From an uncultured bacterium (GTDB lineage Bacteria > Eisenbacteria > RBG-16-71-46 > CAIMUX01 > WJJG01), in contig CAZNJE010000021.1 in assembly GCA_964573295.1 (NCBI GenBank), positions 3,570 through 67,569 of the forward strand: a DNA stretch of 64,000 nt, written 5' to 3'. Position 1 is the stretch's first letter. Every line of letters starts with the position of its first letter. Below, piece after piece: positions 3-24,095 of this stretch. The notes under the pieces are model-generated. The model searched no databases and was not told where the DNA came from. It saw nothing but the letters and a program-made list of their open reading frames with translations. The position numbers and the translations under genes were made by a program.

Positions 3-2156
3 GTGACACAGGCCGATACGCTGCTGGTACGGCTTTTCGGCAACGAGGGACACGTCGACATCGCCGGTGCCGGCTACCGGGACACGAGCGGGGATGGTCG
101 CATCGAACGCCGCCTCGTCCCCCTGGGCATTCTGGAGAACGAGACCCATCCCCCCCTCCTGCTGATTGCCTGGAACGCGGGCGCCGACGCGGGTCGCCGC
201 GGCATCCAGGCCATCGATCTGGACCGTTTGGAACCGGCCTGGTTCTATCCCACCGGTCCGAATCCCTACCAGTGGTCGTTCCGATTCGAGGACCTCGACC
301 ACGATGGCGAGCACGAGATTCTCTTCTGTCTACCCACGTCGATGCAGGGCCGCAGTGCCGGATCCACCGATGATCGCCACTCCTGGGTCGTCGCGCTCGA
401 ACCGGATGGCCAGGAGCTGTGGGCCCACCGCCTGAGCGGTGCCTACGGATCGCCGGCCTGGGCGGAGGCCGTGACACCGGCACCCGAAACCAGCTACGTG
501 GCGGCGGTCGCGAAACGCTTTCATTCCGGGGACACAGATCAGATCCTTGCGGCCGACACCTTGTTCGTCGTCGCTGCCGACAAGGGTAGCCCGACTGCCT
601 ACCGGCCGCTCGACCGCCAGCCCTGTGGTCTGGCGCGCTTCTCGAACACTCATCTGCTGCTGACCCACTACGACGGCACCTTTGAAACGTATGCGGTCGG
701 AGCCGACGGACAGCTTGCACGTACCGCTGCCGACTCCTTCGTGGTGGGCGCCGAACGGCTCAGTGCCTCTGATCTCGACGGCGACGGCCGGTGTGAGATC
801 GCCGCCCTGGGGCGCGGCCCCGATGGCGTGGAACTGCTCCTGGTCGATCAAGAGCTTCGCCTGCGGGGACGCAAGCAGCTCGAGACGATGAGCTACGGCG
901 GCGCGCGACTCTCGTTCCTGCAAGCGCGCCACGAGACGCCGCCGCTGCTGCTGGTGGGGGCCGGCCCCTATACGATCACCTTCGCCCCGCGAGTCGTCCG
1001 CGGGCAGACCTACCGGCTCGCCAGTGCGTTCCTGGCACTGCCGGGCATCTGGTGGCCAGGGGGCGCCTTGCTGGCGGGTGCTGGGATGGCGGCGCTTTCG
1101 GCCGCGCGGCGTCTGCGCGTCAAATGGCGGCAGCTGCTGGAGACGTGGTCACGGCGGCAGCAAACGAGTCCGACGCCCGTCCGCACCCGCGTGCTGCGGG
1201 TCGAGTTCGAGCGTCACATGCACAAGATGCACCATGGGTCCTCCTGTGCGATCACCATCCTCAAGATGGCCTGGGGCAATCTGGAGAACGCGGCGGAGGA
1301 TGAACGCCCTCAGGCCCTCTATCGCAGCCACCTCCTGGCAAACTGGGAACAGCTCGACTGGGTGGGTTGGATGCAGATTGACGAAGCGCTTTCGTTGGCC
1401 CGAGCGCTCGGGGTCGCTCCCGACCGGTGCGCGCGCATCGAAGAGAGCGCCGAGGTGATCGCCCGCGAATGGCCCGCGCTGCTCGAACGAACCTGGGATG
1501 CCGGCACCGTAGCGGCCGCCCGCAAGGTGCTCAGCCCGGCCCTCGAGACCCTGGCCGCCGATCTCGAGTCGTTCCGCCTCTGGACCCAGCACGACTTGCA
1601 CCAGCGCGCAACGCACGAGCTGCGCGCGACGCTGCGCGCGCTCGAGCAGAACGTGGCTACCGGTGACCAGCCCTTGGTCGTCGAGATTGCCCCCGAAGCC
1701 GACCGGCTGTGGATCCGGGCCGTGCCGGGCGACGTGCACTTCATGGTTGAGAACCTGGTGGCCAACGCCTACCGTGCGCTCGAGAACGGGCCCGGGCGCG
1801 TCACCGTGCGGGCCTTTCCGCTGAACGCCTTCCTGGTCGTCGAGGTGGAAGATGACGGTTGCGGTATTGCGCCCGAGGCTCACGAACAGATCTTCGCGCA
1901 CAAACGCCCCCGCGGCGACGGCCACGGTACGGGACTGGTCGCCTCCCGCCGTATGGTCCGGGATCTGCACGGCAACCTCGAGCTCCTCGGCAGCGAGGTG
2001 GGCGAGGGTACCACGTTCGCGCTGTTCCTGCCCCTGGTGTCGGCGCCGCCCGACCCGTTCGAGCCGTCCGCGGAGGAGACCCGCACGGATCGTGTGAACG
2101 GCTCCATGGGACACCCAGGACGGTACCACTCCGGTGAGGTGGAGGAGATGCCATGA
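3..2156 (+). CDS. Sensor histidine kinase, 5'-partial. N-terminal FG-GAP/VCBS-like repeats, C-terminal HisKA plus HATPase_c.
   Basis: C-terminal region carries an H-box (THELRATLRAL) and an HATPase_c G-box region (VEVEDDGCGIA...GDGHGTGLVASRRMV...GEGTTFALFLPL). Upstream DxDxDG-type motifs (DLDHDGEHEILF, DLDGDGRCEIAAL) suggest an FG-GAP/beta-propeller sensor domain. The ORF runs off the 5' edge of the window. Its stop overlaps the next gene's start (ATGA), consistent with an operon. Confidence 0.8.
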   Translation: MTQADTLLVRLFGNEGHVDIAGAGYRDTSGDGRIERRLVPLGILENETHPPLLLIAWNAGADAGRRGIQAIDLDRLEPAWFYPTGPNPYQWSFRFEDLDHDGEHEILFCLPTSMQGRSAGSTDDRHSWVVALEPDGQELWAHRLSGAYGSPAWAEAVTPAPETSYVAAVAKRFHSGDTDQILAADTLFVVAADKGSPTAYRPLDRQPCGLARFSNTHLLLTHYDGTFETYAVGADGQLARTAADSFVVGAERLSASDLDGDGRCEIAALGRGPDGVELLLVDQELRLRGRKQLETMSYGGARLSFLQARHETPPLLLVGAGPYTITFAPRVVRGQTYRLASAFLALPGIWWPGGALLAGAGMAALSAARRLRVKWRQLLETWSRRQQTSPTPVRTRVLRVEFERHMHKMHHGSSCAITILKMAWGNLENAAEDERPQALYRSHLLANWEQLDWVGWMQIDEALSLARALGVAPDRCARIEESAEVIAREWPALLERTWDAGTVAAARKVLSPALETLAADLESFRLWTQHDLHQRATHELRATLRALEQNVATGDQPLVVEIAPEADRLWIRAVPGDVHFMVENLVANAYRALENGPGRVTVRAFPLNAFLVVEVEDDGCGIAPEAHEQIFAHKRPRGDGHGTGLVASRRMVRDLHGNLELLGSEVGEGTTFALFLPLVSAPPDPFEPSAEETRTDRVNGSMGHPGRYHSGEVEEMP

Positions 2157-3586
2157 GAACCCTCAGACCCGCCGGTGGGGATTCGGCGTCTCCGACCCGC
2201 GAGCCCAAACCGCGACTGCTGATCGTCGACGACGATGAGCAGTTCTGCCAGATGATGCGCCTCGAGGTGGATGCCGATCATCATCTCGACGAGGCCCACT
2301 CGGCTGCGGAGGGCTGGCAGAGAGTCCTGCAGATCAATCCCGATGTCGTTCTCCTCGACGTCGGGATGGAGACCAAGGACGCCGGCCTCGGCTTGCTCCG
2401 GAAGATTCGGACACTGCCCACGCCACCGGCGGTGGTCATGATCACCGAGCACGACGACGTGAGCACGATCGTCAGCTCCATGCAGGGCGGCGCGGTCGAG
2501 TACGTGACCAAGCCGCCTCGCCGGAAGACGCTGCGCCAGGCCATCGAACGCGGGATCGAGAACCGACGCCTGCGGATGGAACTGGCGCTGCAGTCCGAGC
2601 GGCTTCCCGCCCTGGCGCGGCAAGCCATCATCGCCCGCGCTCCCCGCATGCAAGAGGTTCTGAAACGTGTCGAGAAGGCCGCGCGAACCGATGTCCCGGT
2701 CATCCTCACCGGAGAGACCGGGACGGGTAAGGACCTGATGGCGTATCAGATCCACGCGCGAAGCCGCCGCAAGGCCGGCGAGTTCGTTCCCTTCAGCTGC
2801 AATCGCCAGAACGAGAGCCTGGCCCTCAGTGAGCTGTTCGGCTACGAACAAGGTTCATTCACGGGGGCCGTCCAGCGACGGCAGGGCGCCCTCGAGAAGG
2901 CAAACGCCGGTACGCTGTTTCTGAACGAACTAGGCGAGTGCCCTCCCCGGCTACAGGAGATGCTCCTGAGCGCCAACCCGGACAGTCCGCACGGTTACGA
3001 ACGCGTCGGGGGCACGCGATTCGAGTCCGACTTTCGCCTGGTCGCGGCCACCAGCCGCAATGTCACGCGCATGCGGCAACAAGGCCTGCTGCGGGATGAT
3101 CTGTACAACCGCGTGGCTGGGTTCTGGATTCATATCCCGCCCTTGCGCAATCGTCCGGATGACATCCTCCCCCTCGCCCGGTCCTTTCTGGAGACCGCGT
3201 GTATGAAGGCCGATCTGGACCCGAAGACGTTCGCTCCAGCCACCGCCGAGGCGCTGTTGCAGCACGAGTGGCCGGGCAATGTGCGCGAACTCGGCAATGT
3301 CGTCGAGGCGGCGGTGACCGAGTGCGTCACGGGCACCACGATCGAACCCTGGCATCTGACCGGACTCTACCCGCCGGCTGGCGAACCGGTGCTGCCGTAC
3401 GAGGAGATGAAACAGCGAACCGTCCGATCGCTCCAGCGCCGGTATCTTCACGAACTCCTCGCCGAAGCCCGCGGGAACGTGCAAGAGGCCGGCCGCATCA
3501 GCGGGGTCGCCATCGGAACGCTGTACCGCTGGGCCAAGGAGTACGGGATCGACCCGGACGCCTACCGAGACGGAACCGGGGTGTGA
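2153..3586 (+). CDS. Sigma-54-dependent response regulator (NtrC/Fis family): REC + AAA+ sigma-54 activation + C-terminal HTH
   Basis: Receiver domain (LLIVDDDEQF...VLLDVGM). Walker A (ILTGETGTGKDLMA). The sigma-54 interaction region is degenerate, with ELFGYEQGSFTGA where the GAFTGA motif should be. C-terminal Fis-type HTH (GNVQEAGRISGVAIGTLYRWAKEYGI). Translationally coupled to the upstream kinase. Confidence 0.85.
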   Translation: MRTLRPAGGDSASPTREPKPRLLIVDDDEQFCQMMRLEVDADHHLDEAHSAAEGWQRVLQINPDVVLLDVGMETKDAGLGLLRKIRTLPTPPAVVMITEHDDVSTIVSSMQGGAVEYVTKPPRRKTLRQAIERGIENRRLRMELALQSERLPALARQAIIARAPRMQEVLKRVEKAARTDVPVILTGETGTGKDLMAYQIHARSRRKAGEFVPFSCNRQNESLALSELFGYEQGSFTGAVQRRQGALEKANAGTLFLNELGECPPRLQEMLLSANPDSPHGYERVGGTRFESDFRLVAATSRNVTRMRQQGLLRDDLYNRVAGFWIHIPPLRNRPDDILPLARSFLETACMKADLDPKTFAPATAEALLQHEWPGNVRELGNVVEAAVTECVTGTTIEPWHLTGLYPPAGEPVLPYEEMKQRTVRSLQRRYLHELLAEARGNVQEAGRISGVAIGTLYRWAKEYGIDPDAYRDGTGV

Positions 3587-3626
3587 GGGGAGTGAGGGGA
3601 GTGAGGGGATCACAGTCGATCGAACG

Positions 3627-3648
3627 GCACGCGATTGCACGGTAGCCT
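3627..3648 (+). promoter_or_regulatory. Candidate sigma-54 (-24/-12)-like element (cGGCACgcgaTTGCAc); spacing is one nt shorter than consensus
   Basis: GGCAC...TTGCA resembles TGGCAC-N5-TTGCW, but the GG-to-GC spacer is 9 rather than 10 nt. It lies 40 nt after the stop of the sigma-54-dependent regulator and about 450 nt upstream of the FeS gene. Weak call. Confidence 0.2.
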
Positions 3649-3949
3649 GCGTTCACCCAGCACCATCAGCTGATTCGGGTGCCGGGGTGACGCACGTCCC
3701 CCCCTAGGCTGCTAAAGAGCAGAAACCGTGCCGGTGGCATATTTCGGGGCTCCATTTGATCGAAGTCTGTAAGCTGCATTCGGAGAAACAATTGCTGGGA
3801 CTGCTATTCCGGTCCCGTCCTTCCGCGGCGGCCCAGGATTCTCCTGAATGTGAGGACTGGGCGGGCCTTCTTTGTAATTGTCTGTTCTGAATGGCGTTAC
3901 GGTCGAACACGTATGTGAGACCGGAACCGTTGCCGACGCCATGTCGCCC

Positions 3950-4075
3950 TCCGGCGACCGGCAACCGGCTGTCCGCAACGGGCGCCCGGCAACCGGCGCC
4001 CGGCAACCGGCGTCCGGCATGCGGCGTCCGGCATGCGGCGTCCGGCGTCCGGCTCGCGGAGCCGGCCGGTCAGAA
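3950..4075. repeat. GC-rich tandem repeat array (ccggcaaccggcgyccgg / ccggcatgcggcgtccgg units) in the 5' leader of the FeS gene
   Basis: Direct repeats visible: ccggcaaccggcgcccggcaaccggcgtccggcatgcggcgtccggcatgcggcgtccggcgtccgg. Confidence 0.7.
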
Positions 4076-4099
4076 AGTCGTAGATAGAAGGAGGATTTC

Positions 4100-5176
4100 A
4101 TGGCTGCCGAGGAGAGAGCCATGTCCACATCCCGGCGGGCATTCCTGAGAACCCTGGGGCTGGCGGGCGCCGCGGGCGCCGTCGCCTCGATGCCCGAAGC
4201 GAAGGCGTCTTCGTCCGAGAATGAGCTCGTCACCGTACTCGACATCGGTACGTGCATCGGGTGCGGTGCCTGCGTCGAGGCCTGCCACGAGGCTAACGCG
4301 GGCAAGTATCCCGACCCGCGGAAGCCCTACCCCAAGATGTACCCGAGCCGGGTCAAGGTGGCCGAGTGGTCGGACAAACGCGACATCATCGACCGGCTGA
4401 CACCCTACAACTGGCTCTTCCTCCAGCATGCCGAGGTAGAGTATCAGGACAAGACCTACGAACTCTCAATCCCGCGACGCTGCCTGCACTGCACCAACCC
4501 GCCCTGCGCCAATCTCTGCCCCTGGGGTGCCGCGCGCAAGCAACGCAATGGCATCGTCCGCATCGACGAGGAGATCTGCCTCGGCGGCGCCAAGTGCGCG
4601 GACGTGTGCCCCTGGGACATCCCCAAACGACAGACCGGGGTGGGCCTCTACCTCGACCTGCTGCCCTCCTTCGCCGGCAACGGCGTCATGTACAAGTGCG
4701 ACCGCTGTTACGATCGCGTCGAGCGCGGCGTCGTCCCCGCCTGCATCGAGGCCTGCCCGGTAGGCGCGCAGCGTATTGGCCCGCGCCGCGAGATGGTCGC
4801 CTACGCACACGAACTCTGCGCGCAGACGAACGGCTTCCTCTATGGCGAGATTGAGAACGGCGGCACGAATACCCTCTACGTCTCTCCGGTCCCGTTCGAC
4901 CTGATCAACGAGGCGATCGAGAAGGGACCCGGCAAGCCGCACATGGCCCCGGTCGAAAACCAAATGGGAACAGCGGAAAATCTCTCGTGGGTATTGCTGG
5001 TGGCCCCGCTGGCCGGCGCCGCCGCCGGGCTACTGAAGACCGGCACGCGCCTGCTGAAGGCCTCGGAGAGCCCAGGCGGCGAGCAGGCGGGCACGACCGC
5101 CGAGCAGGAGACAGGCACGACCGCCGAGCAGGAAACAGGCACGACCGCCGAGCAGGAGGCCCGCGATGATCGCTAG
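4100..5176 (+). CDS. Tat-exported 4Fe-4S ferredoxin-type subunit (FdnH/HybA/DmsB-like) with a C-terminal TM anchor and a TAEQETGT repeat tail
   Basis: RBS AGGAGG 7 nt upstream. Twin-arginine signal (SRRAFLRTLGLAGAAGAVAS). Four Cys clusters of CxxCxxCxxxCP type (CIGCGACVEAC, CLHCTNPPCANLCP, CLGGAKCADVCP, CDRCYDRVERGVVPACIEACP). Hydrophobic C-terminal helix (WVLLVAPLAGAAAGLL), then a 3x in-frame 24-nt repeat (GTTAEQET). Confidence 0.75.
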   Translation: MAAEERAMSTSRRAFLRTLGLAGAAGAVASMPEAKASSSENELVTVLDIGTCIGCGACVEACHEANAGKYPDPRKPYPKMYPSRVKVAEWSDKRDIIDRLTPYNWLFLQHAEVEYQDKTYELSIPRRCLHCTNPPCANLCPWGAARKQRNGIVRIDEEICLGGAKCADVCPWDIPKRQTGVGLYLDLLPSFAGNGVMYKCDRCYDRVERGVVPACIEACPVGAQRIGPRREMVAYAHELCAQTNGFLYGEIENGGTNTLYVSPVPFDLINEAIEKGPGKPHMAPVENQMGTAENLSWVLLVAPLAGAAAGLLKTGTRLLKASESPGGEQAGTTAEQETGTTAEQETGTTAEQEARDDR

Positions 5177-5624
5177 ACTCTTCCCCCGCTGGCTGACTGT
5201 TGCGATGGGCCTCGTGGTCGGCGCGCTGGCGCTCAGCGGGTTCGGCCAGATGCCGATCTTCAAGCGCTACTACGTGGCCGACATCCCGGGAATGGCATGG
5301 TTGGCCGCCTACTATGTTACGCATACGATCCACTATGTCGGGGCAATCATCTTTCTCGGGCTGCTGGCCTACATGGTCGTCGTCTACTTGCGCAGCCGTA
5401 CAGTGGGCGTCAGGATCACGCAATCGGGGGCCCTGCGCGCCGGCGCGGTGACTATTATCGCGGTCACCGGAATCCTCCGCGTGCTCAAGAGCCGGCCCGA
5501 CGTCTACCTGGGAGCGAACATCGTGTTCGCGATCGATCTGGCACACCTGGGCGGCGTCATGCTGTGGGGACTCCTGGCGTTGGCCGCGGCGATCGCCCGA
5601 CGCCGGCCCTATGTCCGTGTGTAG
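5166..5624 (+). CDS. Small polytopic membrane protein, possible b-type cytochrome membrane anchor (FdnI-like)
   Basis: Overlaps the FeS gene by 11 nt (coupled). About 4 predicted TM helices with conserved His in helices (THTIHY, LAHLGG). The cytochrome b assignment is inferred from context only. Confidence 0.45.
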   Translation: MIARLFPRWLTVAMGLVVGALALSGFGQMPIFKRYYVADIPGMAWLAAYYVTHTIHYVGAIIFLGLLAYMVVVYLRSRTVGVRITQSGALRAGAVTIIAVTGILRVLKSRPDVYLGANIVFAIDLAHLGGVMLWGLLALAAAIARRRPYVRV

Positions 5625-5701
5625 AACGGGCGGCTGTCACGTAGAAGGATACGGCGCGACAGCAAGAGGCCGGCTGTGGGAACATCGGAAAGGAGCGAAT
5701 C

Positions 5702-6463
5702 ATGCACATCCACATCCGTGCCAGATCACTGGCGCGTGGGCGGGCCATGTGTGTCGTCGCAGCGATCGTGCTGCTGACCGCAGCCGCCGCGCTGGCGCCT
5801 ATTGCCGCGGCGACGCCCACTGCCGCGCTGACGCCCACTGCCGCGGCGCAGACCGAAGAGGAGGTCTCGAGCTCGACCATCGAAACCCTACCCGGCCCCG
5901 AGCGTGTCGGCGGGGAGGGCCTCTTCGGCCTCCTCCAATCGCGCCGCTCGCTTCGTAGCTTCACCGACGAACGCCTCACGCCCGGCGAGATCGGGCAGCT
6001 GCTGTGGGCCGGGCACGGCACGACCGGCACCGACCGGTTCACCCATCATACGATCCCTTCGGCGGGAGCCCTCTACCCGATCGAGCTGTTTCTCCTCGAC
6101 AGCCGCGGGGTAGCTCGCTACCACCAGGCCGACCATGCTTTGGTCTGGCAAACGCGGGACGATCAGCGCAGCAACCTGGCTCGCGCCTGCCTCCAGCAGA
6201 TGTGGGCCGCCGATGCCCCCGCCATCATCGTCGTGGCGGGTGTACCCGAGCGGACCACCACCAAGTACGGGGACCGGGGAGAACACTACGTGCGGATCGA
6301 AGCCGGTTGCGTGCTACAGAACCTGTTGCTGACCGCGACCGAGCTGGAACTGGGAGGCACTCCGATCGGGGCCTTTCGGGACGAGGAAGTTTCCGGTTTG
6401 TTGCAGCTACCTCCGGGCTGGGAGCCGCTGCTGGTCGTGCCGGTGGGTCACGCCGCGCCCTAG
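5702..6463 (+). CDS. SagB-type dehydrogenase / nitroreductase-family flavoprotein with N-terminal signal/TM segment
   Basis: RRSLRSF motif, PSAGALYPIE motif (hallmark of SagB/ThcOx-type dehydrogenase domains) and a C-terminal ExG...PIGAF nitroreductase fold signature. Hydrophobic N-terminus (CVVAAIVLLTAAAALAPIAAA). Confidence 0.7.
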   Translation: MHIHIRARSLARGRAMCVVAAIVLLTAAAALAPIAAATPTAALTPTAAAQTEEEVSSSTIETLPGPERVGGEGLFGLLQSRRSLRSFTDERLTPGEIGQLLWAGHGTTGTDRFTHHTIPSAGALYPIELFLLDSRGVARYHQADHALVWQTRDDQRSNLARACLQQMWAADAPAIIVVAGVPERTTTKYGDRGEHYVRIEAGCVLQNLLLTATELELGGTPIGAFRDEEVSGLLQLPPGWEPLLVVPVGHAAP

Positions 6464-6632
6464 CGTGAACCGGGACCACCCCCGCCGCCAGGTCGCTCGA
6501 GCCGCGGCCTGGTGGTCGAGTCGCCGGTGGTCGAATCGTCACCGGGTGACTGGCCTCTGGCGGTCGAAGACAGGCTGGAGTAGAGTGGCGGGCAGAGGAT
6601 CGATTCACCCTCAACGCAAGGGAGGCACCACG

Positions 6633-6980
6633 ATGTTCTACAAACAGTTCACGGACGTGCCCTCCAAGCCAGTGGCCATGGAAGGAGCCGCTGACGTCAC
6701 CATCCGTGAGGTCTTCACCGAACGAGACGGCACCCCCACCTTCCAGCTGCGCATCTTCGATGTGGCGCCCGGTGGCCACACCCCCCTGCACCAGCACGAC
6801 TACGAGCACGAGATCTTCGTGCTGGCCGGCCAGGGAGAGGTCACGCTCGGCGAGCAGGTCCATGACATCGAACCGGGGAGCACCGCACTCGTCCAACCCA
6901 ATCTTCTCCACCAGTTCCGCAACCCTGGCGAGGCGCCCTTGCTCTTCATCTGTCTGATTCCAAATCGTGAGTCGCATTGA
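6633..6980 (+). CDS. Cupin-domain protein (115 aa)
   Basis: Internal ATG at 6633 with RBS AAGGGAGG upstream. Cupin motifs G(X)5HxH(X)3,4E(X)6G (GGHTPLHQHDYEHEIFVLAGQG) and PxGxxHxxxN-like (PGSTALVQPNLLHQFRNPG). The 168-nt upstream part of the ORF-track entry looks non-coding. Confidence 0.7.
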   Translation: MFYKQFTDVPSKPVAMEGAADVTIREVFTERDGTPTFQLRIFDVAPGGHTPLHQHDYEHEIFVLAGQGEVTLGEQVHDIEPGSTALVQPNLLHQFRNPGEAPLLFICLIPNRESH

Positions 6981-7885
6981 TGGTCGAAGGTCGCGATCAC
7001 CAAGCCGGTCCCCCGCCTTCGCCTTCGTCGTGGCCACCACCTCCCTCCCCCGCCACACGGCCGGGGCTGGGCGAAGCCGTGTTGCTGCTGCTCTTGATGG
7101 GCATCACAACCATGATCGCGGTCACGGCCCTCTTCCTGGGCGACGAGCAACGGGATCTCGACATGCTGCTCATGGGCATTCTCGAGGTCTTGGCCATCAC
7201 TCTCGTGCTGCTGGTTGGTGTGCGCCGCGTCGGGTTGCCGACCACACGGGTTCTGGGATTGCGGGCCGTCCCGCTCTGGCTGTGCCTTATCGCGGTACCG
7301 CTGGCAATGGCCGTGGGCACCGTCAACTCGGCCCTGGAGGCACCGGTACGCAACGTGATGCCGATCCCCGAGGAACTCCTGCTCGAGCTGGTCACCCTGC
7401 TCTATCCCGAGACGACGCTCGACTGGGTGCTGATCCTCCTCCCGACGGCCTTGCTGGTGCCGGTAGGGGAAGAGCTGCTCTTCCGCGGGCTGCTCTTGCG
7501 CGGCTTCCTGCTGCGATACGGAGCCACGCCAGCGCTGGCGCTGACCTCGCTGCTATTCGCGCTCGTTCACCTGAATCCTTGGGCTTTCGCCGGCTACTTC
7601 ATCGTCGGGTGGGTGCTGGGGTGGCTCGTGCTGCGGTCCGGCAGCGTGTGGCCAGCGATCATCCTGCACGCATCTTACAATGCTCTGGCGGTCATCCAGA
7701 CCAAGACGCTCATCGATGGGCCGCCCACACTCGAATCGATCCGTGCCGCATCCGAGAGCTGGTGGGACGCACCGGTGACCATCGTCATCTCAGCGCTTGC
7801 GTTGGTCCTCATGGTTCTGCTAATCGAGTCTCGAAGCCGCCAGGATCACCCCTGGGTCATCGACGAGATCTCCTTCGGCCGATAG
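6977..7885 (+). CDS. CPBP family intramembrane glutamic metalloprotease (CAAX protease / Abi family)
   Basis: Motifs EELLFRG, FALVH and HASYN in successive TM helices. 4-nt overlap with the cupin gene. Confidence 0.75.
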   Translation: MMVEGRDHQAGPPPSPSSWPPPPSPATRPGLGEAVLLLLLMGITTMIAVTALFLGDEQRDLDMLLMGILEVLAITLVLLVGVRRVGLPTTRVLGLRAVPLWLCLIAVPLAMAVGTVNSALEAPVRNVMPIPEELLLELVTLLYPETTLDWVLILLPTALLVPVGEELLFRGLLLRGFLLRYGATPALALTSLLFALVHLNPWAFAGYFIVGWVLGWLVLRSGSVWPAIILHASYNALAVIQTKTLIDGPPTLESIRAASESWWDAPVTIVISALALVLMVLLIESRSRQDHPWVIDEISFGR

Positions 7886-9545: not shown

Positions 9546-12275
9546 ATGTCAGACTGGAAAGCCCACTTGGAGGAGCTGCTGAATCCGGAAAACGCCTCGG
9601 CGTCCAGTCCGGACGCCGAGGCGCGCACAGCCGCCCAAGATATCCTCGATGAGGCCTCCGCTTCTAACGAAACGGAGGCCTTACTGCAAGAGCTCGATAC
9701 GAGGTATCCGCTCCGCAGCCAGCAGGGACATCTACAGCCCCTGCCGGCCTACCTGCGAAGTCACCTCATGATGCGGCTCGATCGCAGCGAGGAAGCATTG
9801 CTCACGTTGCTGCCGCTGTGCGAGAAGATCGAGCAGGAGGGGAAGTGGGCCGTGCTGAACGCGCTGGCCTCCGAGGCGCTGGCGTTGCAACCCCACATCG
9901 AACTAGCCCGCTACCTGGCCAAGGCGGCCGAGGAAGGCGGCGTTGGTGAGGTACCCGAGGAAACCCTCGAGCATGCGCTGGACCTGTTCCCCGACGAGCA
10001 TCGCCTCTGCTGGCTGGTGGCCGAGAAGCTCGAGGATGCGGGCGAGACCGAGAAGGCCCTGGGTCTCTTCACTGGCTGTCTCCCAGCCCTGATCGACGCC
10101 CGTGAGCGCGAGAAGGTCGAGGAGGTCTTCCTCCGTCTGGAAGATTGTGAGGACAGCGAGACCCTCCAGACGATGATGCACGCCTGCATGCGGCTCTTCG
10201 GGGTCAAGGAATACAAACTCGGCGACTCCTACCTGGAACCGCTACTTCCAAAGATCAAGTCCGTCGGTTTGGCCGGCGAGGCCTGGCGCATGCTGACCAA
10301 ACTGCTCCCGAAAGCGGCCCCGGAGAACAACCTGCGCAAGCACCTGCTCGCGGTCGCGCCCGATGCTTTCCCCGGCGTGGACGGCGTGGCCGATCTGCTC
10401 ACCCGTAGCGGCTTGCTTGATCCGTCGGTCAAAGTCGACCAGGCGCTCAAGAAGCTCAATCAGCTCTTGGAGTTCGCGCCCGGCTACTACGTGCTGCACA
10501 GCAGCTTTGGCCCCGGCCACATCCAGGTGCGCGAGGACGACGCCCTGATCATAGACTTTCCCGACAAGCCTGGGCATCGCATGTCGATGAAGATCGCGCG
10601 CAATGCTCTGCAGGTCATCCCGGCCGACGACTTGCGCGTCCTGTGGGCCAACGAACCGGAGAAGGTCAAGGCCATGGCGCGGTCGGACAAGACCGGTTTG
10701 GCCTATCTGGCCATCCGCGAGCTCGGGGGCAAGACCACCACCCAAGAGCTGCGCCGGCGCCTGACCCCCGACATCATCAGCACCTCGAGCTGGAGCACGT
10801 GGTGGAAGGACGCCCGCACGCTGATGGAGGAGGACGACCGCTTCGACTTCAGCGAGAGCTTCAAGCAAACCTACGGCATCCGCCTCCCGGGCGCCGACGA
10901 TCACGAATTCGAGCTGCCGCGGCTGGACCGGCGACGCGGCATCCGCGCCAACCTGAACCTGCTCCGCCGCTTTCTGGATCAACACCCGCAGCACACCGAG
11001 ACGGCCGTGCGCATGTACACGCCGGTCCTGATCCGTTGGATGCGCGAGGAGCGCACACATCCCGAGGCGGCTGTGGCTGTCTGCCTCACGCTGGATCGCT
11101 GGAAGCGTCTAGATGTCGCGGACCTCGACCGCAGCCTGAAGCGCCTCCTGGAATCCGGGGCGGAAGCCAGCTCCTTCGCCGACGAAGACAGTCAGCGCCT
11201 GCTGGCCACCCGCGCGATGGAACTCGAGGGCTATGAGCGCGACGCCATCTACTTCGCGATGGGATCGCGATACGGTTCCATCCGTGAGGTTGCACTGACC
11301 AAGCTTCGCGCGCAGCCCGAGGAAGGCAACCGGCTGCTGACCGAGCTGCTCGCCCGGCCCGAGGAGCGGCCGAATACGGCGCAGTCGATCATCCAGAACG
11401 TCATGGCCGACGAGTCCGAGCGCGAGCCATTCTTCCCATCGGTCTGGCGGGGGGCGCTCTCGCTCGCCCGTCTCGTCGAGCGCACCGGACGCGATTCGTT
11501 CCGCGAGCAGATCATGCGTCTGTTCAAGCCGAACAGCCAGCTCGCCGATGCGCTTCGCGATGCGCCGGTTCCCGACGACATCCCGTTCTTGCTCGAGGAT
11601 GCGCTGAAGCGCTGGCGCCAATCGGAGAACTACCTCTTCCCCATCCTCGATTTCTTCGAAAGTGCGGGGCTCGAAGAAACGGTGAGTGCCGTTCGTGACA
11701 GCCGCTCGCTGGCCACCAATCGCTTGCTCATGCAACAGCAGCATGAGGGACATGCGTTCGATGGCTATTACCTGACACGCGCCACCTACCACCGGCTGGA
11801 GGAAGAACGCAACCAGCTCGCCTTCGAGCTGAAGACCAGCGTGGCGCAGGCCATTCAGAAGGCACGCGAACACGGCGACCTCAGCGAGAACGCCGAGTAC
11901 GATGCGGCCAAGGAGAAGCAGGCAAACTACCACGCGCGGATCCATCAGATCGACGCCCAGCTGAGCCGCGCCAACCTCATCGAAACGGTCGATGTGCCCG
12001 ACGGGGTCGTCGGTCCCGGATCGTTGGTCGACCTGAAGGTCGTCTCGAGCGCCGGCCCCAACGGCATCAAGAGCCTACGCTATTGGCTCCTGGGCGAGGG
12101 CGACTCCGGCGACAGCGAAGAGGTGATCTCCTGCACGGCCCCAGCCGCAAAGAAGCTGCTGGGCCACCGTGTGGGCGATACGATCGAACTCGAGAGCGAT
12201 CAGGGGCCGTATCAGGTTGAGATCGTGGCCACTGAGAAACGCTTGCCGGAAGAGCACTCGGCGGGGAAGGCGTAG
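9546..12275 (+). CDS. Large (909 aa) protein with a C-terminal GreA/GreB transcript-cleavage-factor domain fused to a roughly 700-aa helical N-terminal region
   Basis: C-terminus has the canonical GreA N-terminal coiled-coil motif (AREHGDLSENAEYDAAKEKQANYHARIHQIDAQL) followed by the FKBP-like GreA C-domain (VVGPGSLVDLK...ISCTAPAAKKLLGHRVGDTIELES). The N-terminal 700 aa has no family I can name. A segment (YYVLHSSFGPGHIQVRED) faintly resembles CarD/TRCF RNAP-interaction motifs. Confidence 0.7.
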   Translation: MSDWKAHLEELLNPENASASSPDAEARTAAQDILDEASASNETEALLQELDTRYPLRSQQGHLQPLPAYLRSHLMMRLDRSEEALLTLLPLCEKIEQEGKWAVLNALASEALALQPHIELARYLAKAAEEGGVGEVPEETLEHALDLFPDEHRLCWLVAEKLEDAGETEKALGLFTGCLPALIDAREREKVEEVFLRLEDCEDSETLQTMMHACMRLFGVKEYKLGDSYLEPLLPKIKSVGLAGEAWRMLTKLLPKAAPENNLRKHLLAVAPDAFPGVDGVADLLTRSGLLDPSVKVDQALKKLNQLLEFAPGYYVLHSSFGPGHIQVREDDALIIDFPDKPGHRMSMKIARNALQVIPADDLRVLWANEPEKVKAMARSDKTGLAYLAIRELGGKTTTQELRRRLTPDIISTSSWSTWWKDARTLMEEDDRFDFSESFKQTYGIRLPGADDHEFELPRLDRRRGIRANLNLLRRFLDQHPQHTETAVRMYTPVLIRWMREERTHPEAAVAVCLTLDRWKRLDVADLDRSLKRLLESGAEASSFADEDSQRLLATRAMELEGYERDAIYFAMGSRYGSIREVALTKLRAQPEEGNRLLTELLARPEERPNTAQSIIQNVMADESEREPFFPSVWRGALSLARLVERTGRDSFREQIMRLFKPNSQLADALRDAPVPDDIPFLLEDALKRWRQSENYLFPILDFFESAGLEETVSAVRDSRSLATNRLLMQQQHEGHAFDGYYLTRATYHRLEEERNQLAFELKTSVAQAIQKAREHGDLSENAEYDAAKEKQANYHARIHQIDAQLSRANLIETVDVPDGVVGPGSLVDLKVVSSAGPNGIKSLRYWLLGEGDSGDSEEVISCTAPAAKKLLGHRVGDTIELESDQGPYQVEIVATEKRLPEEHSAGKA

Positions 12276-19113: not shown

Positions 19114-20826
19114 TCAACCCCGCGCCCTGTCCAGACCCCGGTAGCTGATCGCCTCACTCACATGCCCTTCACGCACCGACTCGCTTCCGGCCAGGTCGGC
19201 GATGGTGCGCGCAATCCGCTGAATGCGATGAAATGCGCGCGGGCTCAGTCGCAAGCGCGTCATCGCGATGCGTAGGAGCCCGAGAGAGCGTTCCTCGAGC
19301 TTGCAGAACCGATGCAGGTCGCCCACCCGCATGTCGGCATTGCGGGTGACGGCACCCGAGGCCCATATGGTCGTAGCCGCCTCGGCTTGGAGCAATCGCT
19401 CCTCGGCTTGGGGCCATCGCTCCTCGGCCTGGGGGGATCGTGCCTCGAGTCGGGGCGATGCGGCGGCCCCGGCCGAGGCCGCGGCCGCCCCTACTCGGGC
19501 TGAGTTCGGCAACAGCGCCGTACCAGCTACGCCGAAGCGGGCCTGCTGCCGCTTCCAGGCCGCGAGCACCCGTCGGCGAACCACGTTGCTTGGCTCGGAC
19601 GGCGGTAGCTGGGCCAGCTGCCGGAAATCCACGTTGGTCATCTCCACCTGCAGATCGATGCGATCCATGAGTGGGCCCGAAACCCGGCTCAGGTAGCGCT
19701 GGACCATGGCCTCGGTGCACCGGCACCCGCCCCGCGGATCCAGCCGGTGGCCGCATGGGCAAGGATTCATGGCGGCCACGAGCTGGAAGCGGCTCGGGAA
19801 CCGGGCCTGAAAACCGCTGCGGATCACCGTCACCACCCCGTTCTCCAGGGGTTGCCGCAAGGACTCGAGGGGACGCCGCCGAAACTCGGCCAACTCATCC
19901 AGGAAGAGTACGCCGCGATGAGCCAGGCTCACCTCACCCGGCTGTGGGGGCCGGCCGCCCCCAATAAGACCCAAATCGCTAACGGTATGGTGTGGTGCCC
20001 GGAACGGCCGGTGCAAGACCAGTCCCTGCCCGCTTCCTCGCAGCCCTGCCACGCTGTGGATCTGCGTCACCTCGAGCTGCTCATTCCGCGAAAGGGGCGG
20101 CAGGATCGTGGGCAGACGCTCGGCCAGCATCGACTTGCCGGTTCCGGGCGACCCCAGGAAGAGGAGGTTGTGACCGCCGGCCGCGGCGATTTCCAGAGCG
20201 CGCCGGGCCACGATCTGCCCGCGTACATCGGCGAGATCCACGGTGGCCTCTTCGGCCGGTCCGAACGGGCCGTGATCGGGAGGAGTCACCGGACGCAGCC
20301 GATCCGGTCCCTGCTCCAGGAGGTCCCAGATCTCACGAAGCGTCGCGGCCTCTGCCACCGTCACGCCCGAAGCCTCGGCGGCCTCACCTCCGTTGCCGAC
20401 CGGCACGACGAAGGTCCGCGACCGTGCCCCTCGCCTGCGCTCACGCAGGGCCATCGACAGCGCCCCGCGAATCGGCTGCAGCCGGCCGTCGAGACCGAGC
20501 TCGCCCGCCCAGGAGAAGGTGTTCAGCGCTGCTTCGGGAGCCTGCCCGGAGGCGACCAGGATCCCAATCGCGATCGGCAGATCGAAGGACCCACCGGCCT
20601 TCGGCAAGGTCGCCGGCGCCAGGTTGACCGTGATCTTCTTGTCCGGAAACCGGAATCCCTGGTTTCGCAAGGCCGCCATGATTCGCTCGCGGCTTTCCCG
20701 CACCACCGGATCGGGCAGCCCCACCAGAACCAGCCGCGGGAACGATGTCGCGACCTGATCGACCTCTACCCGGACCGGCAGGGCCTCGATTCCAACCAGG
20801 GCATAGGTGTGGACGGTGGCCAGCAT
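19114..20826 (-). CDS. yifB: YifB/ComM-family Mg-chelatase-like AAA+ ATPase, with a low-complexity insertion near the C-terminus
   Basis: N-terminal Lon-like domain (MLATVHTYALVGIEALPVRVEVD). Walker A (LLFLGSPGTGKSMLAERL). Walker B (GVLFLDELAEF). Approximately 60-aa Ala/Glu/Gln-rich insert (…SPQAEERWPQAEERLLQAEA…) encoded by short repeats. Confidence 0.85.
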   Translation of the reverse strand: MLATVHTYALVGIEALPVRVEVDQVATSFPRLVLVGLPDPVVRESRERIMAALRNQGFRFPDKKITVNLAPATLPKAGGSFDLPIAIGILVASGQAPEAALNTFSWAGELGLDGRLQPIRGALSMALRERRRGARSRTFVVPVGNGGEAAEASGVTVAEAATLREIWDLLEQGPDRLRPVTPPDHGPFGPAEEATVDLADVRGQIVARRALEIAAAGGHNLLFLGSPGTGKSMLAERLPTILPPLSRNEQLEVTQIHSVAGLRGSGQGLVLHRPFRAPHHTVSDLGLIGGGRPPQPGEVSLAHRGVLFLDELAEFRRRPLESLRQPLENGVVTVIRSGFQARFPSRFQLVAAMNPCPCGHRLDPRGGCRCTEAMVQRYLSRVSGPLMDRIDLQVEMTNVDFRQLAQLPPSEPSNVVRRRVLAAWKRQQARFGVAGTALLPNSARVGAAAASAGAAASPRLEARSPQAEERWPQAEERLLQAEAATTIWASGAVTRNADMRVGDLHRFCKLEERSLGLLRIAMTRLRLSPRAFHRIQRIARTIADLAGSESVREGHVSEAISYRGLDRARG

Positions 20827-21013
20827 CTCCCCTCCTGCATTCCCCGACGACGAGCTGCCAGGGGAAATAGCAGGTGGGGTGCCAAGCAGAAGGGCGGAGC
20901 CTCCTCAAGAACCGATGCCCGACGCCGAACCAAACCGCGGTTGGGCAGACCTCAGAACCGATGCCCGACGCCGAACCAACGGATGCGGCGCCAGATCGGG
21001 CATCCGCGGAGTC

Positions 21014-22499: not shown

Positions 22500-24095
22500 A
22501 TGAAGGTCATTCTGGCCGGGCAGAATCTCGACCAATCCATCGTCGCGCGCTTTCGCGCTTACCTCGAGCAGCGGGCTGTGTCGCCTTCGCCGGGTTCGGC
22601 TTCTGCGGACTCCCCAGCCCCCCAGGCTTCCACCGGCCACGCCGGCGGCGGCGTCTCGTCGTCAGAACACCGATCCTTGCGCGGCCTGGATCCGCAGAGC
22701 CTCTCGCCCGAGACCCTATCGGCTGCCTATGCGCGCATCAGTCGTGATCCACATCCGATTCCCGATCTGCGCGCGCAAGCCATCGCCGACGTGACCGCCG
22801 CCAGGAAGTCGAACCAACGTATCATCTTCGGCTTCGGCCACGCGAGTGTGGCCGAACACGCCGTGTTCAACCTCGATATTCTGGACATCTCGCGTATTGC
22901 GATGGAAGCGCTCGAGAGTTCTCGTCTGGCGTCCTACACTGAGAAATCGCAGCGCTACATCACGCTGGATCGTGACTACGTAGTTCCAGAGGAAGTCGCC
23001 GCCGCCGGCTTGGAGCGCCAGTTTCGCGAGCTGATCCGCAAGCAACAGGACCACTATCAAACGGCGCACGAGCGGCTCCTGGCACTCTACCAGCAGAAGC
23101 ACCCCGACCAGTGGGAGAAGCGCAGCGGGCGGCGCGCCCTCGAAGGCGCCGCCAAAGAAGACGCCCGCTATTTCCTTTCTCTGGCGACCACCGCGCAGGT
23201 GGGGGTGACGATGAATGCCCGAACCTTGGAAGCGACGGTGCGCCGTCTGGCAGCCGATCCCCTCCAGGAGTGCCGCCACCTGGCCGAGGCCATTCACGCC
23301 GCCGTCATCGAGGCGGCCCCATCCCTGGTCCGCTACGTCGAAGCCACCGAATACCGGCGGGAAACACCTCCGGCCATCGAACACTGGGTGTGCCACCGAT
23401 GGCCCGCCGATGGCCCCTCCGGGAAAGAATCGAATTCCGAAAGCCCGCCGGCCGCGCGTTTGGTCTTCTCAACACCGAACGGTGACGACATGCTCCTGAC
23501 GGCCCTGGTGGCCGGAAGCTGTGGACGCAGTTGGGCCGACGCCGAAGGCTGGGTTGCCTCACTCGACCAGGACGGCCGGCGTGAACTCGTGCTCGAGAGC
23601 CTGCGCCGTCTGGATGAGCATGCCACGATCCTGCGCCAGTTCGAGATTCCCGAGTTCATCTTCGAACTCATCGCGAGCGCCTCTTGCTTCGCTCAACTCA
23701 AACGTCACCGGCTGGCAACGCTTCTCCCCCAGCCCTACGAGCCGGCGCTGGGCGTGACGATCCCGCCCGCGTTCCGAGAGGCCAGCTTGCTCGGTGAGTA
23801 CCGCGATGTCTGCGCGCACGCCGAAAGCCTGGCCGAGCAGATCCGCTCCCGCCATCGCGATGCGGCCGCCTACATTCTGACCAACGGCCACCGCCGGCGC
23901 GTGATCTTCAAGGCCAATGCCCGCGAGCTCTATCATCTTGCGCGGCTTCGTCTGGACGCCCATGCTCAATGGGACATCCGTCATCTGTCCGAGGAGATGA
24001 TCGGCCTCGCGCGCAAGGCACTCCCTCTGACCATGCTCATGGCCTGCGGCAGGGACCAGTTCCCCGAGCACCGCCGCCGCGTGCTCAGTTCCTGA
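22500..24095 (+). CDS. thyX: Tandem-domain flavin-dependent thymidylate synthase ThyX-like protein (531 aa)
   Basis: Two ThyX-like halves. First: GHASVAEHAVFNLDILDISRIAMEALESSRLASYTEKSQRY (the conserved RHR appears degenerate as SRL). Second: QLKRHRLATLL...ANARELYHLARLRLDAHAQWDIR. The size matches the duplicated-domain ThyX seen in some lineages. Confidence 0.55.
   Translation: MKVILAGQNLDQSIVARFRAYLEQRAVSPSPGSASADSPAPQASTGHAGGGVSSSEHRSLRGLDPQSLSPETLSAAYARISRDPHPIPDLRAQAIADVTAARKSNQRIIFGFGHASVAEHAVFNLDILDISRIAMEALESSRLASYTEKSQRYITLDRDYVVPEEVAAAGLERQFRELIRKQQDHYQTAHERLLALYQQKHPDQWEKRSGRRALEGAAKEDARYFLSLATTAQVGVTMNARTLEATVRRLAADPLQECRHLAEAIHAAVIEAAPSLVRYVEATEYRRETPPAIEHWVCHRWPADGPSGKESNSESPPAARLVFSTPNGDDMLLTALVAGSCGRSWADAEGWVASLDQDGRRELVLESLRRLDEHATILRQFEIPEFIFELIASASCFAQLKRHRLATLLPQPYEPALGVTIPPAFREASLLGEYRDVCAHAESLAEQIRSRHRDAAAYILTNGHRRRVIFKANARELYHLARLRLDAHAQWDIRHLSEEMIGLARKALPLTMLMACGRDQFPEHRRRVLSS

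What the first reader, a model, noticed from the sequence alone, without database searches (positions are those of the whole stretch)
3..5624. Two-component system (HK + sigma-54 activator) next to an orphan Tat-FeS / cytochrome-b-like pair lacking any catalytic subunit
The FeS protein has a twin-arginine signal, four ferredoxin-type Cys clusters and a C-terminal TM helix. That is the architecture of FdnH/HybA-type electron-transfer subunits. It is translationally coupled to a small 4-TM His-containing membrane protein, FdnI-like. FdnH-type subunits normally ride the Tat system with a molybdopterin or [NiFe] catalytic partner encoded adjacently. No such partner exists within about 5 kb either side. 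The next gene is a signal-peptide-bearing SagB-type flavoprotein. This may be a non-canonical periplasm-facing redox module in which a flavoprotein replaces the molybdoenzyme. The sensor kinase has an extracytoplasmic FG-GAP-like domain, and the adjacent activator is sigma-54 dependent. A GGCAC-N4-TTGCA element at 3627-3648 is a weak sigma-54 promoter candidate.
Basis: partly seen in the sequence, partly recalled or inferred. Interest (0 to 1): 0.6.

Follow-up and report, generated by a model that had tools for sequence, protein, structure and literature searches.

The report
Stand-alone OhcB/OhcB2 membrane redox module
This is a two-gene membrane electron-transfer unit, an exported iron-sulfur protein plus a small one-haem cytochrome b, of the Ohc family named in sulfate reducers; it sits beside a two-component regulator, and having no enzyme partner next door is normal for this family, so the finding is real but mostly ordinary.

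Summary
The pair is not an oddity. The 152-aa membrane protein belongs to a compact family (296 representative clusters; 325 species genomes, nearly all Desulfobacterota, a few Eisenbacteria). One database record calls it "OhcB2", and one paper lists the complex as "OhcABB2C". In 83 of 85 loci it directly follows an OhcB-type Tat iron-sulfur protein, and natural fusions of the two exist. The window's FeS protein is 51% identical to the one heading an ohcB-B2-A-C operon in Oceanidesulfovibrio. In 33 of 40 loci with full flanks the pair stands alone. No molybdo- or NiFe-enzyme recurs nearby. A sigma-54-controlled orphan ohcB was already reported in D. alaskensis. OhcB2 is a shortened relative of FdnI/HyaC-type cytochrome b that keeps only the periplasmic-side haem ligands. 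The FeS protein always has Gly in place of one Cys, so a [3Fe-4S] cluster is predicted. The flavoprotein idea is not supported: the nitroreductase travels with the cupin/CPBP genes even where the pair is absent. No canonical sigma-54 promoter precedes the FeS gene. Most likely role (inferred): electron exchange between menaquinone and a periplasmic partner encoded elsewhere.

The parts
3..2156 (+). Sensor histidine kinase, 5'-truncated by the window edge. The full protein is 851 aa: TM1, a ~440-aa extracytoplasmic domain, a second hydrophobic segment, and a cytoplasmic HATPase_c domain.
   Evidence: HATPase_c E 8e-19. FG-GAP_3 is below threshold only. TM1 lies at residues 17-39 of the full protein (hydropathy). 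The second hydrophobic segment is read from the translation.
2153..3586 (+). Response-regulator-type sigma-54 enhancer-binding protein (receiver + AAA+ + HTH_8) with a GSFTGA loop. It overlaps the kinase stop by 4 nt.
   Evidence: Sigma54_activat E 2.4e-48. NtrC/AtoC-like, but below every equivalog cut-off.
3587..4099 (.). 513-nt intergenic region.
   Evidence: The best + strand GG-N10-GC site scores only 7/12.
4100..5176 (+). OhcB-type periplasmic iron-sulfur protein (358 aa). Tat signal (RR at residues 12-13). Cys groups at residues 52-62, 128-140, 160-170 (three Cys, Gly163) and 200-219. C-terminal TM anchor at ~294-311. Repetitive acidic cytoplasmic tail.
   Evidence: 51% identical over its full length to the FeS gene that heads the O. 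marinus ohcB-B2-A-C operon. Closest solved structure is FdnH 1kqf_B (E 1e-22). 15 Cys and Gly163 are (near-)invariant in 78 relatives.
5166..5624 (+). OhcB2-type small membrane protein (152 aa, 4 TM). It is a predicted mono-haem cytochrome b with ligands His56 (TM2) and His127 (TM4) on the periplasmic side. It carries the signature loop GFGQMPIFKRYYxADxPGxxW.
   Evidence: There is no Pfam, NCBIfam or PDB sequence hit. Homology to PF01292 is shown through longer relatives.
5702..6463 (+). Exported or anchored SagB-type nitroreductase-fold protein. It is a neighbour that probably belongs to the downstream cupin/CPBP block, not to the redox pair.
6633..7885 (+). Cupin (6633-6980) and CPBP/Rce1-like intramembrane protease (6977-7885). 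They form a conserved block with the nitroreductase in relatives that lack OhcB/B2.

Best explanation
Genes 4100-5624 encode a stand-alone OhcB/OhcB2 module, which is the conserved core of the 'octahaem cytochrome complex' (Ohc, OhcABB2C) annotated in sulfate-reducing Desulfobacterota. Here it occurs in an Eisenbacteria-related lineage.

Proposed working:
- OhcB is exported folded by Tat and tethered by its C-terminal helix. It carries a wire of three [4Fe-4S] clusters plus, by inference, one [3Fe-4S] cluster at the membrane-proximal position.
- OhcB2 is a four-helix, single-haem cytochrome b. It derives from the FdnI/HyaC (Ni_hydr_CYTB) family by loss of both ligands of the cytoplasmic-side haem.
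- Together they most likely pass electrons between the menaquinone pool and the FeS wire, and from there to or from a soluble periplasmic redox partner that is not encoded beside them. The quinone site would lie on the periplasmic face near the haem and the invariant loop. In Desulfovibrionales the partner is the octahaem cytochrome OhcA. Here it is unknown, possibly a cytochrome c pool elsewhere in the genome.
- Because haem and cluster chain are all on the P side, the step would be electroneutral rather than a redox loop.
- The adjacent kinase and sigma-54 activator are the probable regulators.

Shown: family membership, obligate pairing, natural fusions, the His/Cys pattern, and the absence of a conserved catalytic neighbour.
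Inferred: haem binding, the [3Fe-4S] cluster, quinone coupling, the direction of electron flow, and regulation by the adjacent two-component system.
For: Pairing:
- The OhcB2 family has 409+ homologues. One is named 'OhcB2 (Protein with transmembrane helices)'.
- It is found in 325 species genomes.
- An FeS gene lies immediately upstream in 83/85 loci.
- Natural FeS::OhcB2 fusions exist (P0292, P0313).

Link to Ohc:
- O. marinus has a divergent sigma-54 EBP, then FeS, OhcB2, an 8-haem cytochrome c and a PF01292 cytochrome b.
- The window's FeS is 51% identical to that FeS over its full length.
- Literature: ohcBAC is sigma-54-dependent through DVU3142, and G20 keeps ohcB alone, still regulated (PMC4641369). 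'OhcABB2C, TpIc3/MQ' is listed in PMC6491731. Ohc is proposed to pass periplasmic electrons to the quinone pool (PMC4287179).

Orphan state is the norm:
- 33/40 loci with 5 kb or more on both sides have no cytochrome of four or more haems within 5 kb.
- Among 98 large neighbouring ORFs, no Mo-bisPGD or NiFe family is among the 25 most frequent in either half. These lists go down to families with two members.

Cytochrome b ancestry:
- A1 versus the long relatives: probability 99.9%, E 7e-36. The long relatives hit PF01292 at about 1e-20 and OhcC at 96% probability.
- His56 and His127 are invariant in 81/81. A His in TM1 occurs in only 4/81 and in distal TM4 in 3/81, whereas the long relatives and OhcC keep both.
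- The best structural TM-scores are to HyaC (0.57 and 0.52).

FeS protein:
- 15 invariant Cys, Gly163 in 77/78, and the RR-x-F motif in 78/78.
- Replacing the second Cys of group III gives a [3Fe-4S] cluster in NarH (natural Trp) and in DmsB C102 mutants. This is established knowledge, not tested here.
Against: - No cofactor, quinone site or partner has been shown for any member. To my knowledge Ohc has never been purified.
- Direct profile comparison of OhcB2 with canonical OhcC is not significant (probability 1.7%). Foldseek E-values are all above 1. The cytochrome b assignment therefore rests on intermediate sequences and two conserved His.
- No canonical sigma-54 promoter precedes the FeS gene here. 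A relative with a 70% identical FeS (L087) has the pair without the kinase/activator genes. Regulation by the adjacent system is therefore only by adjacency.
- Where the full ohc operon exists it also contains a separate di-haem cytochrome b (OhcC). OhcB2 might therefore be only an anchor or relay rather than a quinone-reactive subunit.
Confidence: 0.65

Rival explanations
1. In this lineage the FeS/cytochrome b pair is the membrane electron-input module for the adjacent exported SagB-type nitroreductase-fold flavoprotein, forming a periplasmic reductase in which a flavoprotein takes the place of a molybdoenzyme.
For: - The order FeS, OhcB2, nitroreductase is kept in the window, in L007 (90% relative) and in L087/L088 (FeS 70% identical), with 68-78-nt gaps.
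- No terminator-like site lies between the genes.
- The nitroreductase has an N-terminal hydrophobic signal, with RR in L007 and L087.
Against: - In L087 the conserved synteny runs on through cupin, CPBP, two unknown genes and the GreA-fusion gene, so it looks like shared ancestry rather than an operon.
- Relatives L092 and L093 keep the nitroreductase with cupin (and in L092 CPBP) without any FeS/OhcB2.
- The other close relatives of the pair that were read have other neighbours (L004, the contig, L089).
- None of about 75 Desulfobacterota loci has a nitroreductase match near the pair.
- The nitroreductase subfamily is large. Most members carry Sec or lipoprotein-type signals (95/113 with a hydrophobic N-terminus, 31 with a lipobox, only 11 with RR). 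It occurs in phyla that lack OhcB2.
- The window's own copy reads RGR, not RR.
Confidence: 0.1
2. The pair is a redox-sensing or signalling accessory rather than a respiratory wire. It would report the state of the quinone pool or periplasm to the neighbouring regulators (the kinase here; ECF sigma/anti-sigma in Desulfobacterales).
For: Regulators are the only recurrent neighbours:
- Sigma-54 activators in 31 loci.
- An ECF sigma factor plus a short zinc-finger anti-sigma on the same strand in 28-29 loci.
- Crp/FNR in 9 loci.
Against: - A dedicated regulator next to its target operon is the common pattern.
- In Desulfovibrionales the pair has the predicted promoter and activator sites of a target gene (PMC4641369; sigma-54-like sites).
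- The anti-sigma proteins are 81-94 aa, and in the one sequence read I see no TM segment that could contact a membrane complex.
- A chain of four clusters plus a haem is far more than a sensor needs.
Confidence: 0.1
3. The pair is a decaying remnant of a full ohc operon that lost ohcA and ohcC and no longer functions.
For: The full four-gene operon exists in some Desulfovibrionales and in Desulfatibacillum (L001, L010, L031, L081).
Against: - The pair is intact.
- All 15 cluster Cys, the Tat motif, both His and about 20 other residues are invariant across 78-81 species-level relatives.
- The stand-alone form is the majority state.
- The genes keep a strong RBS and translational coupling.
Confidence: 0.03

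Closest known systems
Ohc (octahaem cytochrome) complex of sulfate reducers, OhcABB2C / ohcBAC (D. vulgaris DVU3143-3145)
   Same: - The FeS subunit is of the same family: 51% identity to the FeS of a complete ohcB-B2-A-C operon.
- The small B2 membrane subunit directly downstream is the same.
- There is a sigma-54 activator next door.
- An orphan ohcB under sigma-54 control is already reported for D. alaskensis G20.
   Different: - No octahaem OhcA and no di-haem OhcC in 64 kb.
- The activator is a response regulator paired with a kinase, not a one-component PAS activator.
- No canonical sigma-54 promoter was found.
- The host is not a Desulfobacterota.
FdnH/FdnI of E. coli formate dehydrogenase-N (PDB 1KQF)
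   Same: - Closest solved FeS structure (E 1e-22).
- The FeS subunit is tail-anchored and sits on a four-helix cytochrome b of the PF01292 lineage.
- The retained His pair corresponds by position to the periplasmic-side haem ligands of the di-haem relatives. Equating these with FdnI's haem bP ligands is from memory of the 1KQF structure, not aligned here.
   Different: - No FdnG catalytic subunit.
- OhcB has its own Tat signal, whereas FdnH rides with FdnG (established knowledge).
- The cytoplasmic-side haem ligands are lost, so no transmembrane redox loop is possible.
- Group III has three Cys.
- It scores 106 bits against the 335-bit cut-off of TIGR01582.
HybA (hydrogenase-2) and HmcB (Hmc complex)
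   Same: - Best NCBIfam matches (121 and 119 bits).
- Own Tat signal plus C-tail anchor.
- A periplasmic four-group FeS protein that is not itself catalytic.
   Different: - Far below both cut-offs (263 and 420 bits).
- Their membrane partners are NrfD-type (HybB, HmcC), not a PF01292-derived four-helix protein.
NarH/NarI and DmsB
   Same: The second Cys of group III is replaced, which in NarH (Trp) and in DmsB C102 mutants gives a [3Fe-4S] cluster next to the membrane subunit (established knowledge). The cluster sits next to a P-side haem, as in NarI.
   Different: NarHI belongs to a cytoplasm-facing enzyme with a catalytic NarG. Here everything faces the periplasm and there is no catalytic subunit.
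CbcL-type cytochrome c::cytochrome b fusions (Geobacter)
   Same: A relative of the window's pair (L004) lies back-to-back with a 740-aa multihaem-c::PF01292 fusion. This is the fused equivalent of OhcA+OhcC.
   Different: It is not present in this window. It is a possible partner type, not the same module.

Membership tests
OhcB (FeS subunit of the Ohc complex) | Full-length homology to the FeS gene of a bona fide ohc operon | tested here: met
   51% identity over 343 aa, E 6e-127, to L001:6943-8001, which heads FeS, B2, 8-haem cytochrome c and cytochrome b with a divergent sigma-54 activator. D. vulgaris DVU3143 itself could not be fetched.
OhcB (FeS subunit of the Ohc complex) | Tat signal, four Cys groups, C-terminal membrane anchor | tested here: met
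   RR-x-F in 78/78, 15 invariant Cys (group III with Gly163), C-terminal hydrophobic helix in 76/78.
Ohc complex as a whole (OhcABB2C) | Octahaem cytochrome c OhcA and di-haem cytochrome b OhcC encoded alongside | tested here: not met
   No ORF with two or more CXXCH in 64 kb and no PF01292 gene near the pair. This is the same state as 33/40 related loci and as D. alaskensis G20. The rest of the genome is unseen.
OhcB2 small membrane subunit | ~150 aa, 4 TM, signature GFGQMPIFKRYY...THxxHY...DxxHL, directly downstream of OhcB | tested here: met
   All signature residues are present, with an 11-nt overlap with the FeS gene.
Ni_hydr_CYTB / FdnI-HyaC cytochrome b (Pfam PF01292) | Significant match to the family model | tested here: not met
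   No Pfam hit at E 0.01 or better. The direct profile comparison with OhcC is not significant. Homology is shown only transitively through longer relatives.
Ni_hydr_CYTB / FdnI-HyaC cytochrome b (Pfam PF01292) | Four His ligands for two haems (TM1, TM2, and two in TM4) | tested here: not met
   Only the TM2 and proximal TM4 His are kept (81/81). The TM1 and distal TM4 His are absent (4/81 and 3/81). It is best described as a mono-haem derivative. Haem binding itself was not tested.
HybA (NF008134), HmcB (NF045715), FdnH (TIGR01582) equivalogs | Score above the curated cut-off | tested here: not met
   121 against 263, 119 against 420, and 106 against 335 bits.
Sigma-54-dependent operon | Canonical -24/-12 element (GG-N10-GC, TGGCAC-N5-TTGC) upstream on the coding strand | tested here: not met
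The best + strand site in 3560-4110 scores 7/12. A 10/12 site lies on the opposite strand. Desulfovibrionales relatives do have such sites.
Sigma-54 enhancer-binding response regulator | Receiver + AAA+ Sigma54_activat + GAFTGA-type loop + HTH | tested here: met
   The loop is GSFTGA, a variant also present in the D. vulgaris response regulator DVU3220, whose target operon is assigned in Table 1 of PMC4641369.
Redox-loop quinone reductase (Fdn-N type) | Quinone site on the cytoplasmic side next to a second haem | not testable with these tools
   The ligands of that haem are missing, which argues against it. Quinone binding needs biochemistry.

The most novel reading that the evidence does not exclude
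The OhcB/OhcB2 pair, not the four-subunit Ohc complex, is the real functional unit. It would be a self-contained, inducible, single-haem 'periplasmic electron socket' on the menaquinone pool that serves changeable partners. In this Eisenbacteria-related lineage it may have been recruited to feed the exported SagB-type nitroreductase-fold protein encoded directly downstream, giving a periplasmic flavoprotein reductase with no molybdenum or nickel enzyme.
Probability: 0.1. Interest if true: 0.6.

Novelty: new member of a known kind. Interest (0 to 1): 0.3.

Why it matters
On its own this locus is one more copy of a module already named in sulfate reducers. It does place the module outside Desulfobacterota.

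The comparative results are of some use to people who study anaerobic respiration:
- The two-gene OhcB/OhcB2 core is far more common than the full Ohc complex.
- B2 is a cytochrome b that has lost its cytoplasmic-side haem ligands.
- The FeS subunit has a family-wide three-Cys site.
- The only steady neighbours are regulators: sigma-54 activators, or ECF sigma with an RsrA-like anti-sigma.

As far as I could find, no member has been studied biochemically. These points therefore give concrete, testable predictions for a widespread but unstudied membrane complex. They do not reveal a new kind of system.

Tried and rejected
- Adjacent Mo or NiFe catalytic subunit. None in the window, none upstream in L006, none recurrent in about 75 related loci.
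- Multihaem cytochrome partner in the window. None.
- Direct hhalign of OhcB2 against OhcC. Not significant. The link needed intermediate sequences.
- Sigma-54 promoter upstream of the FeS gene. None on the coding strand.
- Sigma-70 promoter and terminator scan of 3400-6700. Uninformative.
- Rfam scan of the long intergenic region. Nothing.
- Inverted repeats as activator sites. Only two weak pairs inside the GC-rich tandem array.
- Whether the kinase's sensor domain is related to the PQQ_2 beta-propeller gene that replaces the kinase/activator in L087. It is not.
- Conservation of the intergenic region. L007 is too close (91% identity) to be informative.
- Pereira et al. 2011 could not be read.

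Full report
**What is there**

Five co-oriented genes occupy 3-6463.
- The first is a histidine kinase whose 5' end is cut by the window. The same DNA in contig L006 (identical over 8.5 kb, window position 1 = L006 position 1710) gives 851 aa. It has a TM helix at residues 17-39 (hydropathy), a ~440-aa external domain, a second hydrophobic stretch that I read from the translation, and HATPase_c. FG-GAP is only a sub-threshold hit.
- The second is a receiver + AAA+ sigma-54 activator with a GSFTGA loop.
- After a 513-nt gap comes a 358-aa FeS protein with a strong RBS.
- It is followed, with an 11-nt overlap and an internal AGGAGG, by a 152-aa four-helix membrane protein with no Pfam or NCBIfam hit.
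- Then come a SagB-type nitroreductase, a cupin and a CPBP protease.

**Is the pair really orphaned here?**

Yes.
- In 64 kb no ORF has two or more CXXCH motifs and no other ORF has a ferredoxin Cys motif.
- The ten large ORFs scanned are proteases, RND pumps, a GreA fusion, ThyX, ComM and the like.
- Upstream of the kinase lies a TonB_C gene.

**What the small protein is**

- It has 409+ homologues of about 150 aa, mostly unnamed. NCBI calls several 'FeS-binding protein', and one Desulfatiglans record calls it 'OhcB2 (Protein with transmembrane helices)'.
- An exhaustive profile search of 1.84 billion representatives finds only 296 clusters. A scan of one genome per species finds 325 carriers, nearly all Desulfobacterota, plus a few Eisenbacteria and unnamed MAGs.
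- In 83 of 85 loci a Tat FeS gene sits immediately upstream. Two representatives are natural FeS::B2 fusions. The two proteins therefore form one complex.

**Link to the Ohc complex**

- In Oceanidesulfovibrio marinus the order is a divergent sigma-54 activator, then FeS, B2, an octahaem cytochrome c (PF11783) and a PF01292 cytochrome b. This is the ohc operon. L010, L031 and L081 have the same arrangement.
- The window's FeS protein is 51% identical to the O. marinus one along its whole length.
- PMC4641369 describes ohcBAC (DVU3143-3145) as the sigma-54 regulon of DVU3142. It notes that D. alaskensis G20 keeps ohcB alone, still with its promoter and activator site.
- PMC6491731 lists 'OhcABB2C, TpIc3/MQ'.
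- PMC4287179 gives the usual proposal that Ohc moves periplasmic electrons to the quinone pool.

**The orphan state is the rule**

- Of 40 loci with at least 5 kb on both sides, only 7 have a cytochrome of four or more haems within 5 kb, and only 4 have an OhcC.
- Clustering all neighbours gives regulators as the only frequent companions. Sigma-54 activators occur in 31 loci. An ECF sigma factor occurs in 28-29 loci, on the same strand and nearly always followed by an 81-94-aa zf-HC2 anti-sigma; in four of those loci (L018, L019, L026, L032) a DsrE-like gene lies between them and the FeS gene. Crp/FNR occurs in 9.
- Among 98 neighbouring ORFs of 550 aa or more, no molybdopterin or NiFe-hydrogenase family is among the 25 most frequent in either half. 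Those lists go down to two members.

**Anatomy of OhcB2**

- AlphaFold gives four TM helices (pLDDT 89).
- The positive-inside rule, the topology of the natural fusions, and homology all place the N and C termini in the cytoplasm (inference).
- Invariant residues cluster on the periplasmic side: the loop GFGQMPIFKRYYxADxPGxxW, T52-H53-x-x-H56-Y57 at the start of TM2, and D124-x-x-H127-L in TM4.
- Longer relatives (P0356, P0369, P0381, P0382, P0387) share these motifs. The two scanned, P0369 and P0382, are clear PF01292 members (E about 1e-20). All five also keep a TM1 'HW' His and four of them (all but P0387, which has HM) a second TM4 His ('AHL'), as OhcC does.
- hhalign gives OhcB2 versus these relatives probability 99.9%, E 7e-36, and these relatives versus OhcC probability 96%. 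The direct comparison is not significant.
- OhcB2 proteins almost never have the TM1 or distal TM4 His (4/81 and 3/81).
- The best structural TM-scores, though not significant by E-value, are to the HyaC cytochrome b.
- OhcB2 is thus best read as an FdnI/HyaC-type cytochrome b that kept the P-side haem pocket and lost the N-side one. Haem binding is inferred.
- One long relative (L090) also follows a Tat FeS gene and precedes tatC-tatA.

**Anatomy of OhcB**

- The closest solved structure is FdnH (1kqf_B, E 1e-22).
- The best NCBIfam hits (HybA, HmcB, FdnH) are all far below cut-off.
- In 78 relatives the RR-x-F motif and 15 Cys are invariant. The position of the second Cys of group III is Gly in 77.
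- From what is known of NarH (Trp at that position) and DmsB C102 mutants, this predicts a [3Fe-4S] cluster at the membrane-proximal end of the wire (inference).

**The nitroreductase idea**

- Adjacency holds in L007 (90% relative) and L087/L088 (FeS 70% identical). But there the synteny continues through cupin, CPBP, two unknown genes and the GreA fusion, while the kinase/activator genes are replaced by others.
- The other close relatives of the pair that were read have different neighbours.
- Homologues of the nitroreductase at 54-58% identity sit with the cupin gene (and in L092 with CPBP) and without any FeS/B2.
- The subfamily is large. Most members have Sec or lipoprotein-type N-termini.
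- The gene therefore belongs with the downstream block. A lineage-specific functional link is not excluded, but nothing supports it.

**Regulation**

No + strand site in the gap scores better than 7/12. A 10/12 canonical site lies on the minus strand at 3733..3718.
- Desulfovibrionales relatives do show YGGCATG-N4-CTGCT upstream of ohcB.
- Control by the adjacent two-component system is therefore plausible by adjacency and by precedent, but it is not shown.

**Verdict**

The locus is a new member, in an unusual phylum, of a known but biochemically unstudied module.

Noticed in passing
window 3718-3733 (minus strand): A canonical-spacing sigma-54-like site, CGGCACGGTTTCTGCT (10/12). It is one of only five sites of that quality on both strands of the window. 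It points away from the FeS gene and antisense to the 3' end of the activator gene. It closely resembles the sites upstream of ohcB in Desulfovibrionales.
   Followed up: partly
window 20869-20884 (minus strand): TGGCACCCCACCTGCT lies 43 nt upstream of the start of the ComM/Mg-chelatase-like gene (19114-20826, minus strand). It is a plausible real sigma-54 promoter and suggests this organism uses the canonical consensus.
   Followed up: no
window 3578-3609, 3951-4046, 5080-5158: Three tandem repeats. GGGGAGTGA x3.6 lies right after the activator's stop codon. A 14-nt CCGGCGTCCGGCAA array (x6.9) lies just upstream of the FeS RBS. Both differ from the 90% relative L007 by indels (18 nt and 8 nt). 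A 24-nt coding repeat (TTAEQETG x3) lies in the cytoplasmic tail of the FeS protein.
   Followed up: partly
L014, L017-L020, L023, L026, L027, L032, L048, L062, L068, L083 and others: In Desulfobacterales the OhcB/OhcB2 pair lies in a same-strand cluster with an ECF sigma factor and a short (81-94 aa) zf-HC2 anti-sigma with an HxxxCxxC motif, in which I see no TM segment. In L018, L019, L026 and L032 a DsrE-like gene also lies between them and the FeS gene. Crp/FNR is often upstream. This hints at thiol or oxidative-stress induction.
   Followed up: partly
L090:1864-4623: A di-haem (PF01292) long relative of OhcB2 also directly follows a Tat FeS gene and is followed by tatC and tatA. This is another catalytic-subunit-free FeS/cytochrome b pair with its own Tat genes.
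   Followed up: no
L004:3986-6208 (minus strand): A 740-aa multihaem cytochrome c fused to a PF01292 cytochrome b (CbcL-like, the fused equivalent of OhcA+OhcC). It is transcribed divergently from the OhcB/OhcB2 pair of a 66-68% relative of the window.
   Followed up: partly
window 5702-6463 and homologues P0390-P0509: This SagB-type nitroreductase subfamily is almost always exported or anchored. 95 of 113 members have a hydrophobic N-terminus and 31 have a lipobox. It lies in a conserved block with a cupin and a CPBP intramembrane protease. How a Sec- or lipoprotein-exported nitroreductase fold would obtain FMN is unexplained.
   Followed up: partly
window 9546-12275: A 909-aa protein with GreA/GreB domains only at its C-terminus. 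The long N-terminal part hits PF27167 (HTH_GRAD) in the L087 and L093 relatives. It is syntenic with the cupin/CPBP block in L087; in L093 it lies on the other side of the nitroreductase, on the opposite strand.
   Followed up: no
window 22500-24095: A 531-aa ThyX (Thy1) protein with two matched stretches, about twice the usual length. It may be an internally duplicated flavin-dependent thymidylate synthase.
   Followed up: no
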